From assembly GCF_017348835.2 (NCBI RefSeq), contig NZ_CP071375.1: a DNA stretch of 64,000 nt; one strand, given 5' to 3'. Made by a program: the position numbers. The stretch comes from Escherichia coli. GTDB lineage: Bacteria; Pseudomonadota; Gammaproteobacteria; Enterobacterales; Enterobacteriaceae. This document shows, in pieces, positions 42,328 through 51,300 of this stretch; the stretch's first letter is position 1; every line of letters starts with the position of its first letter.

Positions 42328-45300
42328 TGATAATCCTCCCGCCAGAAGAATAAAACATAGCCCGGTATACAAGTGTATACCGGGCTTTTTTGATCAAAAT
42401 TCCATTTTCACCGTGAATTGCACTTCACGCGGATCGCCAATCTGATTCCCCAGATTATTTGTGGCGATGGAAGAGGTGTAATACGTTTTATCAAACAGGT
42501 TTTTGACGTTTAATTGCAGTGTGACCGGATACTGCAATTTCATTTTGTATGCGGCGAAGGCATCGGCAACGAAATAGCCTGGCAGATAATAGTCAGCCCC
42601 ATTGGTTGCCGAACGACGGCTTACGCCATGTCCACCACCGCCAAACGTCAGTGTGTTATTGCCTGGCATGTTATGAATGTCATAGGTCAGGAATAGCGAA
42701 CCGGTATGACGAGGAACATTCGGCAATGGTTTCCCTGCATAATCAGGATCTTCCAGAACCTTAGCATCGGTATAGCCGTAGCTGGCAATGATATTAATGT
42801 TTTCAGTTAATGCTCCCGCAAGGTCGACTTCTACCCCTCTTGAACGAACGCGGCCTGCCGTTTTGGCGATGGTTTCATCACCAATACTTTCGGTATACAA
42901 CACGTTACGTTTATGGATATCAAACAGCGCAATATCTGCGGTTATACCATCGAACAGCTCGAATTTTGCCCCGACTTCGTAAGCATTAGATGATTCCGGT
43001 GGAAGATCTCCGATGTAGCTGGCAATTGACGATTGCGGCATAAATGTTTGCGAATAATTAGCAAATAAGGATACCGATGGCGTCAGTTTGTAGACTAACC
43101 CCAGTTTGGGCGTCCATTGTTCATCGCGGCTGTCAGTATTGACATTAAAAGGACGGCCTTTACCCGCATACTGCGTGTAATACTGATAGCGGATCCCGGC
43201 GACGGCAATCCAGTTATCGGTCAGATAGAGCGCGTCCTGTGCATAAGCTGAGTAGCTCTCCTGTTTGATCGTCTGATCACTGTCCGACGCCGAAACCGTT
43301 GTGCATTTGCTGGTATTGCCATAAACGGGGTTGTAGATATTGAAATCTTTAGCGTTTTTACAGCGAATCATATCTGTGCGCAGAAGATCATAATATTCAT
43401 ATGACACCCCACCCAGAATCTCATTATAGAACCCAGCAATATCAACATTCCCTTGCAGATCCGCACGAGTAGAATGCATACGCTGGGTAGATCCCTGAGT
43501 TGCATCAACACGCCGTGTCAGCGTTCCTGTCGTTGCATCATACGCGGTAACGCGAGCCTGATTGTCGCTGTATTTATCCTGGCTGTAGCTGTAATCAAAG
43601 CGCGCTGTCCACTGGCTATTGAGATGATATTCTGCGTTGAGTTGCGCCAGATCGGACTGACCATCTGTAATATTAAACGGTTCGTCAAAACGTATTTTTC
43701 GATCAACGTTTACGGGCTGTTTCGTCGTAAGGTCGAAAATCGTTCCACGATCGAACGGAGTTTTATAGTCCCGATGGGAATAGAGCATGGTTACTGTTGC
43801 ATTATCACCAAACCAGGTGAGTGACGGGGCAATAAATGTACTGCGCTCTTTACCGAAGTTTCGCCAGTAATCTTCATCCTGCACTTCCCCCGTCAGGCGG
43901 TATGTCAGCTGAGTGCCTTCAATGGGACCTGTGATATCAAGTTGCCCAGTGCCTCCGCCAAAACTGGAGGACGTGGCTGAGACAGAACCATGGAATGTTT
44001 TTTCCGGGCGCTTGGTCACGACGTTAATCAATCCACCAGGATCGAGAATGCCATACAGCGTGGAGGCCGGACCTTTTAGCACTTCCACACGTTCTGTGGC
44101 GGCGTTGAAACTGCGAGGAAGTACAGTTCGCAGACCGTTGGTCATGATGGAGCCATCCCGGTTAGCACCAAACCCACGACGTACAAAGGCGTCCTGAGTT
44201 CCGCCTAATGTATTGGTCTGTACCACGTTACTGACGTTATAAAGCGCTTCATCCAGCGTCGTTGCATTCTGATTTTCCAGAACCTGATCGCTAACCGTAT
44301 TGACCACCTGCGGAATATCCAGCATCGGCATATCGGTTAATGTCGCCGTGGAAGTGCTCAGAGGTTGATAACCATCGGTCGCCTCAGTTGCGGTATTTGC
44401 ATCCGCTGTAACAGTGATTGTTTCGCCATCTTTGGTCGTTGCAGTGTCGGTTGCATGAATCATTGGTGCTGCAAAGAGCAGTGAAAAGAGCGCCCGACCT
44501 TTGATTCCTGAGAATGAAGGTGTGAACTTAGCCATTTAGTCTGTTATCCCAAAAACTCACGGATTGTCGTGAGTGAAAATTGTTTCTTGTTGCTCACTAA
44601 GCACTATCCGTTTGTTATTTCACCATCGGATATGTAATTGAGAATCATTCAACCATGCGCTGATGTAGTAGTAAATGAGAAATAACAAAAAATTGCTACA
44701 TGTGTTTTTATGAGAGGTTAATGCAATTCAATTGATGGTAATTTATTAATATTTAATGGTTTTATTTTTATCTTTAAAAATATTTCACCTATTATTTACC
44801 TTGTTTTTGTATGGCTTTTAACTTCTTGACTACTACATTTTGTGGCGTCAAACTCTCAAAGGAGAATGAGTTTTATTTTTGTTTGTCTTTGATTAAGTTG
44901 GCGTACACGTGGCACATAACGCAAAAGGGCAGGGGCTGATCCTCGACAATGTTTCTGCCGGGTATCACAAGAAAATCATTGTTGATGGTGTTTCTTTCTC
45001 CGTTCCCACAGAAAAAATGACCGTTCTGGTTGGGGCAAACGGCTGTGGAAAGTCGACGTTGCTCAGCACCATTGCACGTATCTTGCAACCCATGGGCGGC
45101 TCAATATTGCTGGATGGTAAAGCGATTCACGAGCAACCAACGAAAGCGTTATCCCGTAGACTTGGGATCTTGCCGCAGTCGCCATTATTGCCGGAGGGCT
45201 TAATCGTTTATGAACTGGTGTCGCGTGGGCGTTTTCCCTGGCAGAATTTCATTCGTCAATGGAGCGACGCCGACGAGCAGGCGGTAGAAGAGGCTCTGAA

Positions 45301-48300: not shown

Positions 48301-51300
48301 GTATCGGTGATTCAGGCAAATCAGGGAAAAATTAATGTGATGCATAGCTATCATTCGCTGGGGCGGGTATTACGCGATGCTGGTTTTCGCTTTCCGCCGC
48401 TGATTGAGAGCATTCCTGAAGGTGGGCGAATGGATGTGAGCGCGGAGCGTTTACCTGAACTGGATGCCGATTTTGTTTTTGCAACCTGGCGCGGTGACAC
48501 CGGTGGTAAACCTCAGGATGAGCTGGCAGCAATGGAAAAAGTCATGCCGGGATGGTGTCAGTTTCTGACTGCCTGTCGTTCCGGGCGTTATGTGCTGATT
48601 TCTCGTGAAGAGGCAATTTCTAACTCCTTTGCATCTCTGGGGCTGATGGCTGCGCAGATACAATCACAAATTGCGGGACGACCTCTACCGGAGGCTAAAT
48701 GATCCAGAAAGACAAAACGCGGGTTGATATTTATGGTGAGCGTTTTCGCACTCGCGCGAGTCAGTTAACGCCTGGGTTAAGAGCTGTCGCAAGCTACATT
48801 AATGAGCATCGTGAAGTGGTACTCGAGCAAACGGCGATGGAAATTGCGGCCACGTTGAACACTTCCGATGCCACAGTTATCAGGGCTATACAGGCCCTGG
48901 GGTTTGCCGGGCTGCGTGATCTGAAACGCACTCTGGAACAGTGGCTTGGTCCAGCCCTTAGTTCCAGCGAAAAGATGTCTACGACGGTGAGTAACTTGAC
49001 GAGCGATGTTAACACCGCAATCGACTTTGTTCTTGAAGGGCATTTGTATACCTGTAATGTCCTGTCAGAGCCTGAAAACCGCCACGCGCTTGCGCAAGCT
49101 GTAGCGTTGTTGGTACAGGCACGGCAAGTCGCAATTTTTGGCATTGGCGCTTCGGGTATTCTGGCGGACTATACCGCACGACTATTCAACCGCATAGGTT
49201 TGCCTGCCACGGCACTAAACCGTACGGGTATTGGCCTTGCCGAGCAACTGATCGCGCTTCAACGTGGCGATGTTCTGATCATGATGGCGCAAAAATCTGC
49301 GCACCGGGAAGGACTGACAACGCTGCGTGAAGCGAGACGGCTGGGGATCCCTGTTATTTTGCTGACAAACGCGCTGGATTCACGTTTTAGCAAAGACGCC
49401 AGTATCGTGATTCATGTTCCGCGCGGGGATGAAAAGGGGAAAACGCCACTACATGGTACGGTATTGTTGTGCCTGGAAATGATTGTTTGGTCGGTGGCTT
49501 CCGCGATGCCGCAGCGTGCGGTTAAAACCATTAAGCGAATTAACGATTTCCATCGGGGTTTGAAAACAGGAAGAAAGAATGGCTAATCTGACCTGAGGCC
49601 GGTAGCAACACCGGCCTTTTTCAGGAATGTTAAATCCCCGGTTGCAGAATACGGATATTCATCTCCAGCACGTCGCCTTTTACGGCTTCGCTGTACGCCT
49701 TCATGTGCGGGGTTTGCAGATGCGCTTCAAGGTGCGCGATGCTTTCCCACTGCTCAATCATCACGATAGAATCCGGTGCCATAGACTGGAAACTCACGCC
49801 AGCAGCGCAATCCACCATTGGCGCATAGCCGTGGCAACCTTCTTCTTTCAGTACGGTTGGAACGATTTTAGCAAACTGATCCAATACCGCCTGACGGTGA
49901 TGTTGACCAGGACGAGTACGGATTTCTGCGATTACGGTAAGCATGGTTAACTCCTTCTAAAGCCTGAGCTCTAGTTAACCAAAAATTTCCACAAGATGCT
50001 TGCGATATTCTTCAGTATAGCGGGGAACATCAGGCATTTTTATCACGTCATTAGCGATAAATGTCGGCAGCGGTTCCATACCGAGGAATTGGTTTGCTTT
50101 ATGGAACGACAGATACACACCGTCAACGCCAACGCCGTGGAAGAACTGATCTTTTTCGGTGAAGGCTTCCATTGGTGCGTTCCAGGTTAGAGAAAGCATA
50201 TATTTTTTGCCCTGTACCAGGCCGCCGGAACCGTATTTTTTCGACGGATCTTTGCGGGTACGACCATCGCTGGCATACAGAGTCCCGTGACCTTCGGTGA
50301 ATACATCATCAATGTATTTTTTCACTGTCCACGGCGCGCCCATCCACCAGCCTGGCATCTGCCAGATCACCACATCAGCCCAGAGAAAGTTTTGTACTTC
50401 CGCTTTGACATCGTAGTCGCTGTCGGCGCGAACGATGCGAACATCATGCCCGAGGTCGCGCAGTGTGCCATCCGCGACTTCGGTCAGGGTGTCGTTCAGT
50501 TGACCATTGGAGTGGGCGAATTTTTTCACGCCGTTGATAATCAGGATGTTGCTCATTTTTTAACCTCAAGGTGAGACGTTTGCCAACTATAGTACGTCAC
50601 AGAGCGGTACGGTGAAATTAGCAAAATGTGCAAAGTCTTTTGCGAATTTAGCAAAAGTCTTACCCTTACCAGCTTACTTTCGCCTCAAATCCACCTTGTT
50701 CCGCATTCCCAAATTCAACATTCATGCCATGCAGCTTGGCGATTCGCTGGACAATCGATAGCCCAAGTCCACTGCCGGTAGCGGTTTGTCCGGGTGGGCG
50801 ATAGAAGCGTTCGCCAATTCGCGCCAGTGCCTCTGGTGTCACACCGGGGCCGTTATCCCTCACGATGAAATTATCGGCATTCAGCGTGACGTCCACCACG
50901 CTGCCCTGTGGACTGTAACGCACGGCGTTATCCAGCAAATTTCGCACCAACAAACTTAGCAATAGCGGTTGTCCGGTGCGTTTGATGCCCTGGACATTGA
51001 GTGTCAGTCGCACGTCAATTTTCGCCTGCTGCGCCGTGTGGTAAATATCCATCACCGACGATTGCAGGAGATCTTCAAGCGGGATCTCCGCGACGTCCTG
51101 AAGGTTATCCAGTGAGTCCAGCCGCGATAGCGTGAGCAGTTGATCAACCAGACGAGTAGCGCGATCGATCCCGTAATGTAATTGAAGCAGTGCTTTTTTC
51201 CGCGCCTGCGGATCATCGTCAGAGAGCTGCGCAACTTCGGTTTGCACTTTCAGCGCTGTTAACGGGCTACGTAGTTCGTGAGCTGCATCGGAGGTAAAGC

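What the first reader, a model, noticed from the sequence alone, without database searches (positions are those of the whole stretch)
42394..49586. Strain-variable 7 kb insertion between parE and ygiN: TonB-dependent receptor, ABC importer and RpiR-type regulator
From memory, parE and ygiN are adjacent in K-12; here they are separated by six genes: a TonB-dependent receptor (minus strand) divergent from a five-gene plus-strand operon (ATPase, two FecCD-type permeases, periplasmic binding protein, regulator) whose starts overlap the preceding stops (translational coupling). The architecture is that of a siderophore/iron-complex uptake system and may correspond to the fit locus described in some E. 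coli, but I cannot confirm that. The unusual element is the regulator: an RpiR/SIS-domain protein, a family that normally senses phosphosugars, rather than a Fur/AraC/ECF-sigma arrangement, so the transported substrate may not be a conventional siderophore.
Basis: partly seen in the sequence, partly recalled or inferred. Interest (0 to 1): 0.6.

Follow-up and report, generated by a model that had tools for sequence, protein, structure and literature searches.

The report
Known E. coli fit iron-uptake locus
This 7.2 kb block is the already published E. coli "fit" iron-chelate uptake system (outer-membrane receptor, ABC importer and its own repressor FitR), so the find is ordinary; what the system transports and what FitR senses are still unknown.

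Summary
Only the start of the binding-protein gene is wrong: it is 47755, not 47692. The locus is fitA | fitB-C-D-E-fitR of Ouyang & Isaacson (2006, 2008). All 18 published fit primers map to the expected genes. FitE matches the solved FitE structure 3BE5 (E 2e-195). A 2026 genome paper lists a "fit operon" of exactly 7193 bp.

The locus is strain-variable and all-or-none: 1870 of 5426 complete E. coli genomes carry it, and K-12 and BL21 lack it. It is probably not an insertion. The cassette also lies between parE and ygiN in Enterobacter and Lelliottia (parE-side only in Silvania). In other Escherichia lineages it has diverged about as much as its flanks. It carries no mobility marks. K-12-type strains most likely lost it.

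The RpiR/SIS regulator is real, but it was published in 2008 as an autorepressor that acts alongside Fur, not instead of it. The held literature names no substrate.

Three side results are new leads only. Conserved promoter blocks give candidate FitR and Fur operators. The fitA leader carries covarying hairpins. Pantoea pairs FitR with a different receptor.

The parts
42359..42386 (.). Hairpin terminator shared by the convergent genes parE and fitA. It is homologous to the hairpin in the 47-bp spacer of fit-less strains.
   Evidence: Terminator scan finds it on both strands. Alignment with the BL21 empty site.
42394..44535 (-). fitA: TonB-dependent outer-membrane siderophore receptor, 713 aa, with a TonB-box-like ETITVTA near the N-terminus.
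   Evidence: TIGR01783 371.9 bits against a cutoff of 223.5. Nearest solved chains are FetA, FoxA, CntO and FhuA at E 1e-49 to 1e-43. Published fitA qPCR primers match exactly at 43715-43791.
44555..44574 (-). P2 hairpin in the fitA 5' leader (ACUCACG-ACAAUC-CGUGAGU followed by UUUU), ending 19 nt before the fitA ATG.
   Evidence: A hairpin of different sequence sits at the same place in other genera. Strain i484 carries a compensatory variant in the published primer.
44605..44632 (-). P1 hairpin of the fitA leader (arms UAUCCG / CGGAUA).
   Evidence: 88% of cells paired against 30-37% when slid; 5 of 6 pairs show compensatory change; 0 of 500 shuffles reach the observed value.
44629..44652 (.). 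Block B1, GATATGTAATTGAGAATCATTCAA. It contains a predicted fitA -10 (TTGAAT on the minus strand), a HexR-type half-site TGTAAT and a Fur-box-like core (12/19). It is a candidate repressor operator.
   Evidence: Invariant in four genera retrieved through FitR, not through DNA. The 20-nt core is exact in at least 80 species. Fur scoring; HexR motif.
44664..44675 (.). Block B2, TGTAGTAGTAAA. It overlaps the predicted fitA -35 (TTTACT on the minus strand) and is a candidate FitR half-site.
   Evidence: Found at +31 from B1 in 80 of 81 loci long enough to score. At least 98% conserved.
44696..44700 (.). CTACA, the inverted partner of B2 (TGTAG-N27-CTACA).
   Evidence: Present at offset 31-32 in 51 of 80 loci, against a background of 0.0045 per position.
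44826..44837 (+). Block B3, TTGACTACTACA: predicted fitB -35 plus ACTACTACA, the reverse complement of the B2 core. A weak -10, CAAACT, lies at 44849-44854.
   Evidence: Present in every locus that has fitB. Footprint.
44862..44884 (+). Block B4, GAGAATGAGTTTTATTTTTGTTT: the best Fur-box-like site in the intergenic region (13/19), at about +1 of the predicted fitB promoter.
44909..45718 (+). fitB: ABC ATPase with a GTG start. Walker A GANGCGKST, signature LSGGQRQR and Walker B ILLDEPT are present.
   Evidence: Translation. FecE-like at 284 bits. fitB primers match exactly.
45715..46698 (+). fitC: FecCD-family permease.
46695..47744 (+). fitD: FecCD-family permease. RefSeq starts it at 46707, but the ATG that overlaps the fitC stop is conserved in other genera.
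47755..48702 (+). fitE: periplasmic binding protein, 315 aa with an 18-aa signal peptide. Its crystal structure is solved.
   Evidence: Residues 19-315 match PDB 3BE5/3BE6 at E 2e-195. Ribosome-binding site GGGAG. The Shi et al. 2009 FitE paper is cited.
48699..49586 (+). fitR: MurR/RpiR-family repressor (HTH_6 plus SIS), 295 aa.
   Evidence: Pfam. fitR primers match. Shown experimentally to be an autorepressor that binds the fitA-fitB intergenic DNA (PMC2593036).
49597..49621 (+). GGCCGGT-AGCAAC-ACCGGCC hairpin followed by TTTTT, after fitR. It is the likely operon terminator, just before the ygiN stop codon.
   Evidence: Read directly from the sequence. The consensus scan did not list it.

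Best explanation
The block is the chromosomal fit locus of E. coli. FitA, energised by TonB, takes a ferric chelate across the outer membrane. FitE binds it in the periplasm, and FitC/FitD with the ATPase FitB import it. fitA and fitBCDER are transcribed divergently from a 373-bp AT-rich control region under two independent repressors: Fur-Fe2+, which reports iron status, and FitR, the last gene of the operon. Both repressions are published. The following steps are my inference. FitR binds TGTA(A/G)T-type half-sites that overlap both -35 regions. A small molecule bound by the FitR SIS domain releases it, so the system comes fully on only when iron is scarce and the substrate, or a metabolite derived from it, is present. 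The cassette is a pirate uptake module for a siderophore made by other organisms. The locus is ancestral at the parE-ygiN site and was deleted in K-12-type lineages.
For: Identity. All 18 published fit primers map in the right genes, order and orientation, 10 of them with no mismatch (primers from PMC2593036). FitE matches 3BE5. The 'fit operon' of strain BEN2908 is listed at 7193 bp in PMC12928451. Gene families are confirmed.

Regulation. PMC2593036 reports lacZ, qRT-PCR and EMSA experiments, with fur and fitR mutants additive.

Operator inference. Blocks B1-B4 are invariant across genera in an otherwise diverged spacer. B2 and B3 are inverted copies placed at the two predicted -35 regions. 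The RpiR-family regulator HexR recognises TGTAATTAAATTACA.

Module character. The same six genes occur in Kosakonia, Raoultella and Serratia in unrelated neighbourhoods, with no biosynthesis genes nearby.

Ancestry. Synteny with parE and ygiN in Enterobacter and Lelliottia, and with parE in Silvania. Divergence equal to that of the flanks. No mobility genes or repeats. GC content like the flanks. The empty-site spacer is homologous to the parE terminator hairpin.
Against: No substrate is known, and enterobactin is excluded (PMC5907654). Iron-chelate import therefore rests on family membership, on iron/Fur regulation, and on the 2006 paper, which I could not read. No Fur box lies within 3 mismatches of the consensus; the best sites score 13/19 and 12/19, which is only weakly above chance in AT-rich DNA. 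No FitR effector has been shown. Published FitR effects are modest, at 2- to 5-fold. The assignment of blocks to FitR or Fur is untested, and B1 fits either. Conservation of the B1 core across the 80 loci is partly by construction, because those loci were retrieved with it.
Confidence: 0.9

Rival explanations
1. Fit imports something other than a classical ferric siderophore. Candidates are an opine-type metallophore complex, another metal, or a sugar-acid or phosphorylated chelate, with FitR sensing the matching phosphosugar-like metabolite.
For: FitA scores about equally against the pseudopaline receptor CntO, FoxA and FhuA, and it meets no equivalog cutoff. The regulator has a SIS domain. 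PMC12928451 describes fit as related to Fe2+, Co2+ and Cd2+ uptake. The substrate is still unknown.
Against: FitA passes the siderophore-receptor subfamily cutoff. The nearest relatives of FitE are siderophore binders: YfiY, FhuD, FepB and SirA. Expression is de-repressed by iron chelation and in a fur mutant. In Pantoea the FitR module controls a FhuA/FoxA-like receptor plus a ferrichrome/ferrioxamine-type binding protein. The canonical SIS phosphate motif is altered in FitR.
Confidence: 0.15
2. FitR has no effector. It is a constitutive autorepressor that only damps expression, and its SIS domain serves oligomerisation.
For: Published effects are small, at 2- to 5-fold, and were seen without any added ligand. 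The S-x-S-G-x-S/T motif of ligand-binding SIS domains is replaced by A-Q-K-S-A-H.
Against: The replacement motif QKSAHRE and the GIGASG loop are strictly conserved across the FitR clade, Pantoea included. That argues for a maintained pocket. By established knowledge of the family, its members MurR, HexR and NanR are effector-controlled.
Confidence: 0.25
3. The block is a recently acquired genomic island inserted between parE and ygiN in some E. coli.
For: Presence is all-or-none in 34% of genomes. The intergenic region is AT-rich at 34% GC. In other genera the cassette sits in varied neighbourhoods.
Against: The parE-fit-ygiN arrangement is shared with Enterobacter and Lelliottia. Divergence of 92-97% matches the flanks in other Escherichia lineages. 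There is no integrase, tRNA, IS or target duplication. There is no real plasmid copy. The coding GC of 47-55% is like the flanks.
Confidence: 0.1

Closest known systems
E. coli fit system (fitABCDE-fitR; Ouyang & Isaacson, Infect Immun 2006; Open Microbiol J 2008, PMC2593036)
   Same: Same six genes in the same order and orientation. The published primers match. The length equals the 7193-bp 'fit operon' of BEN2908. FitE matches the 3BE5 structure.
   Different: Only allelic differences: 0-3 mismatches per primer relative to strain i484. The window is 100% identical to pig strain PE164 and 99.1% identical to O157:H7.
Fhu, Fec and Fep ferric-siderophore systems of E. coli K-12
   Same: TonB-dependent receptor, a cluster-A binding protein, two FecCD-type permease domains and an ATPase, with Fur control.
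   Different: No equivalog cutoff is met for FhuA, FhuE, FecA, FepA, FepB or FecB. The substrate is unknown. The system has its own RpiR/SIS repressor in place of FecIR or no specific regulator.
HexR, MurR, AlsR(RpiR) and NanR (MurR/RpiR family)
   Same: HTH_6 plus SIS architecture. The GxGxSG loop is kept. The candidate half-sites TGTAAT/TGTAGT resemble the HexR motif TGTAATTAAATTACA.
   Different: FitR controls metal-chelate uptake rather than sugar metabolism. The second SIS phosphate motif is replaced by QKSAHRE. Relatives at 51% identity or less are not linked to siderophore genes.
Substrate-responsive siderophore regulators (PchR, YbtA, AlcR of the AraC family; FecIR)
   Same: A possible logic in which Fur and a pathway-specific regulator together restrict expression to low iron plus available substrate.
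   Different: The protein family is different, and FitR is a repressor rather than an activator. Ligand responsiveness of FitR is not shown.

Membership tests
E. coli fit locus | Six genes: fitA divergent from fitB-C-D-E-fitR (receptor; ATPase; two permeases; binding protein; regulator). | tested here: met
   ORFs and families. Gene roles as listed in PMC2593036.
E. coli fit locus | Sequence identity with the published locus. | tested here: met
   18 of 18 primers map to the expected genes with 0-3 mismatches. FitE matches 3BE5 at E 2e-195.
E. coli fit locus | Repression by Fur and by FitR, and FitR binding to the fitA-fitB intergenic DNA. | not testable with these tools
   Published for strain i484. 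Here I found only conserved candidate operators.
TonB-dependent siderophore receptor (TIGR01783) | Plug plus 22-strand barrel, a score above the curated cutoff, and a TonB box. | tested here: met
   371.9 bits against a cutoff of 223.5. Orthologues carry PF07715 plus PF00593. ETITVTA is present in the translation.
FhuA, FhuE, FoxA, FecA, FepA or Fiu equivalogs (a known substrate class) | Score above the equivalog cutoff. | tested here: not met
   All are far below cutoff, for example FhuA at 230.8 bits against 803.
FecCD/BtuCD-type ABC importer | Two FecCD permeases, an ATPase with Walker A, Walker B and signature motifs, and a Peripla_BP_2 binding protein. | tested here: met
MurR/RpiR regulators | N-terminal HTH_6 and C-terminal SIS domain. 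| tested here: met
   PF01418 at 9.8e-10 and PF01380 at 1.3e-13.
MurR/RpiR regulators | A phosphosugar effector bound by the SIS Ser/Thr motifs. | tested here: inconclusive
   GIGASG is kept, but ISQSGRS of 8K3B aligns with MAQKSAH, which is conserved in the FitR clade. No ligand assay was possible.
Fur regulon promoter | A recognisable Fur box overlapping the promoter. | tested here: inconclusive
   No site within 3 mismatches. The best are 13/19 at 44862-44880 and 12/19 at 44634-44652, and both are conserved across genera.
Mobile genomic island | Integrase or transposase, a tRNA or attachment site, flanking direct repeats, and atypical composition. | tested here: not met
   Annotation, junctions, composition and synteny in other genera.

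The most novel reading that the evidence does not exclude
FitR would be the first RpiR/SIS-family regulator that senses an imported siderophore or a product of it. It would act through TGTA(A/G)T half-sites at both divergent promoters, with a structured fitA leader as a second cis-acting layer of control. Because the FitR-operator module also drives a different receptor in Pantoea, it would be a portable sensor for one particular, still unidentified, xenosiderophore that is widespread among plant- and gut-associated Enterobacterales.
Probability: 0.25. Interest if true: 0.55.

Novelty: already known. Interest (0 to 1): 0.15.

Why it matters
As a finding it adds little. The locus, its regulator and the FitE structure are all published, and fitA is already used as a marker of B2, ExPEC and AIEC strains. 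The remaining value lies in two open questions: what Fit transports and what FitR senses. The comparative results here make both more testable. They give precise candidate operators, a conserved leader RNA and a clade-specific SIS pocket motif. They also show that a cassette shared by many Enterobacterales is ancestral at this site and was lost by laboratory E. coli.

Tried and rejected
- The 2006 fit paper (PMC1698097) is not held. Its transport and distribution data are cited only through later papers.
- A literature search on 'fitB' and 'fit operon' was swamped by Fitbit papers.
- Later searches found no paper that identifies the substrate.
- A strict Fur consensus search found nothing.
- Rfam gave only a chance miRNA hit at E 0.43.
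- Distant FitR relatives at 42-51% identity were examined for siderophore biosynthesis or transport neighbours; none had any, so they give no clue to the substrate.
- RNAalifold on the whole leader recovered only P1, because length variation spoils the alignment around P2.
- The script that finds the fitA start codon failed on about 14 short loci, so the P2 count of 30 of 63 is a lower bound.
- An antiterminator pairing seen in E. coli (repeat I1) is not evident in Kosakonia and was dropped.
- The single 'plasmid' hit is a 4.9 Mb record, that is, a mislabelled chromosome.
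Full report

NCBIfam gives these assignments:
- FitA is a TonB-dependent siderophore receptor (TIGR01783, 371.9 bits against a cutoff of 223.5). It meets no substrate-specific equivalog cutoff.
- The next gene is a FecE-like ATPase.
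- Two FecCD-type permeases follow.
- Then comes a weakly FepB/FecB-like binding protein.
- The last gene is a MurR/RpiR protein.

Pfam finds HTH_6 and SIS in the last gene.

The 4-nt start/stop overlaps are real for fitB/fitC and fitE/fitR. The fitC/fitD overlap is likely real, because other genera keep the overlapping start, although RefSeq starts fitD at 46707. The binding-protein gene starts at ATG 47755 behind a GGGAG site, not at TTG 47692.

**Identity.** PMC2593036 (Ouyang & Isaacson 2008) describes fitA, fitB (ATPase), fitC and fitD (permeases), fitE (binding protein) and fitR, and it lists primers. All 18 primers map to the expected genes, strands and order in the window. Ten have no mismatch and the others have 1-3.

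FitE residues 19-315 match PDB 3BE5/3BE6 at E 2e-195. This is the FitE structure of Shi et al. 2009, whose citation appears. A 2026 genome paper lists the 'fit operon' of strain BEN2908 as a 7193-bp region, which is exactly the length of the finding. RefSeq annotates the same six products in a 100% identical pig isolate.

**What is published about function.** FitR represses both divergent promoters and binds the fitA-fitB intergenic DNA. [quoted passage not shown] The RpiR/SIS regulator is therefore an addition to Fur control, not a replacement for it, and its HTH plus SIS make-up was noted in 2008.

A 2018 paper states that the substrate is unknown and is not enterobactin. Later searches found nothing that identifies it. 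fitA has been used as a marker of AIEC and B2 strains. I could not read the 2006 paper.

**Distribution and history.** The 7193 bp is present whole in 1870 of 5426 complete E. coli genomes and absent from the rest, with no partial copies. Of the carriers, 403 are at 99% identity or more and 1467 are at 95-99%. Carriers include O157:H7 and Nissle. MG1655 and BL21 have parE and ygiN 47 bp apart.

I do not think this is an insertion, for these reasons:
- The block has no integrase, IS, tRNA or flanking repeat.
- Its coding GC is like that of the flanks.
- The only 'plasmid' copy is a mislabelled 4.9 Mb record.
- In two other Escherichia species-level lineages the locus sits at the same site, and its divergence of 92-97% equals that of the flanking genes.
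- The cassette lies next to parE and/or ygiN in several Enterobacter species and in Lelliottia; Silvania has only a partial ParE match. These genera also have the FitA orthologues closest to the E. coli protein, at 87-90% identity.
- The 47-bp spacer of fit-less strains aligns with the parE terminator hairpin of the fit+ allele.

The simplest reading is an ancestral locus that was deleted in K-12-type lineages.

**Beyond E. coli.** FitR orthologues at 63-81% identity occur in many Enterobacterales. In Kosakonia, Raoultella and Serratia the same six-gene cassette lies in three unrelated neighbourhoods, without siderophore biosynthesis genes nearby. This fits a self-contained module for taking up a siderophore made by other organisms. 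More distant FitR relatives, at 51% identity or less, are not linked to siderophore genes.

**Control region (a new lead, untested).** I aligned the fitA-fitB spacer of four genera whose loci were found through the FitR protein. The spacer is mostly diverged but contains invariant blocks:
- B1: GATATGTAATTGAGAATCATTCAA (44629-44652)
- B2: TGTAGTAGTAAA (44664-44675)
- B3: TTGACTACTACA (44826-44837)
- B4: GAGAATGAG...TATTTTT.TTT (44862-44884)

A search of one genome per species with the 20-nt B1 core returned 80 loci, which is the cap, and all were Enterobacterales. In 80 of the 81 loci long enough to score, B2 follows at +31. Every locus that has fitB also has B3 and, in most cases, B4.

The two promoters appear to share one design: a -35 region, TT(G/T)ACT, running into ACTACA, then 17 nt, then a weak -10, then a GAGAAT(G/C)A box near +1. 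B2 and B3 are inverted copies of each other. A further CTACA lies 32 nt after B2 in 51 of 80 loci, against a background of 0.0045 per position.

HexR, a relative from the RpiR family, recognises TGTAATTAAATTACA. TGTAAT in B1 and TGTAGT/ACTACA in B2 and B3 are therefore plausible FitR half-sites. B1 and B4 are also the best Fur-box matches in the spacer, at 12/19 and 13/19, although nothing lies within 3 mismatches of the consensus. The 2008 paper names the exact FitR and Fur sites as an open question, and these blocks are concrete candidates. Two caveats apply. Conservation of the B1 core among the 80 loci is partly by construction. The split of blocks between FitR and Fur is inference.

**Pantoea variant.** In about twelve Pantoea loci, a FitR orthologue at 65-69% identity lies directly divergent from a different receptor. 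This receptor is 36-38% identical to FitA and is FhuA/FoxA-like. A ferrichrome/ferrioxamine-type binding protein follows it. B1, B2 and the ACTACA elements are present, but fitBCDE, B3 and B4 are absent. Rosenbergiella and Shimwellia combine a distant receptor with fitBCDER. FitR and its operators therefore travel as a regulatory module, and they point towards a hydroxamate-like substrate class.

**FitR pocket.** The GIGASG loop of the SIS domain is kept. The canonical S-x-S-G-x-S/T motif (ISQSGRS in 8K3B) aligns with MAQKSAH, and QKSAHRE is strictly conserved in the FitR clade, Pantoea included. This suggests a maintained but non-canonical ligand site. It does not identify the ligand.

**fitA leader (noticed in passing).** Downstream of the predicted fitA -10, the roughly 105-nt leader has three features.
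- P1 is a hairpin (UAUCCG/CGGAUA). It has 88% of cells paired against 30-37% when slid, compensatory change in 5 of 6 pairs, and 0 of 500 shuffles reaching the observed value.
- A GGGCAAUGA box follows. It is conserved in other genera but degenerate in E. coli.
- P2 is a second hairpin whose sequence differs in every genus. It always ends about 19-25 nt before the ATG and is often followed by a U-run. Within E. coli, the i484 primer shows a compensatory variant of it.

The E. coli leader folds at z = -2.4. No Rfam family matches it. The leader could be an attenuator or an mRNA-stabilising structure. I have not tested either.

**Verdict.** It is wrong on polarity (loss, not insertion), on 'instead of Fur', and on one start codon. 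The system is already known, so interest is low. The substrate and the FitR effector remain open, and the operator and leader predictions above are the only new material.

Noticed in passing
window 44536-44641, minus strand (fitA 5' leader): The leader is structured. P1 (44605-44632) shows clear covariation across 25 species. P2 (44555-44574) is a hairpin of different sequence in each genus, at a fixed distance from the ATG and often followed by a U-run. A GGGCAAUGA box is conserved in other genera but degenerate in E. coli. The leader may be an attenuator or an mRNA-stabilising element. No Rfam family matches.
   Followed up: partly
window 44629-44884; loci L004-L086: Four sequence blocks (B1-B4) are invariant across at least 15 genera in an otherwise diverged divergent-promoter region. 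B2 and B3 are inverted copies at the two predicted -35 regions. They are candidate FitR and Fur operators, which the 2008 paper lists as unknown.
   Followed up: partly
L018, L021, L025, L029, L035, L038 (4440-7873), L040, L045, L052, L057, L059, L074: In Pantoea the FitR orthologue, with B1 and B2, is paired with a different FhuA/FoxA-like receptor and a ferrichrome/ferrioxamine-type binding protein, and fitBCDE is absent. In L045 this arrangement lies on a 548-kb plasmid. Rosenbergiella and Shimwellia combine a distant receptor with fitBCDER.
   Followed up: partly
window 50557-50665: Only 109 bp separate mdaB and qseC here. K-12 and BL21 carry ygiZ (DUF2645) in a gap of about 700 bp at this place. 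This is a second presence/absence difference, 1 kb from the fit locus.
   Followed up: no
window 46695 vs 46707: RefSeq starts fitD at the second ATG (46707). The ATG that overlaps the fitC stop (ATGA) gives a 349-aa product, which matches the 350-aa calls with overlapping starts in Kosakonia, Raoultella and Serratia.
   Followed up: partly
window 51482-51500 and 33328-33355: The best matches to the Fur-box consensus in the whole window are a 15/19 site inside qseC and a cluster of 13-14/19 sites near 33.3 kb. Neither lies in the fit control region. Their significance is unknown.
   Followed up: no
PLSDB record NZ_CP134663.1: This record, filed among plasmids, is 4.9 Mb long and carries the chromosomal fit locus. 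It is evidently a chromosome that has been mislabelled as a plasmid.
   Followed up: no
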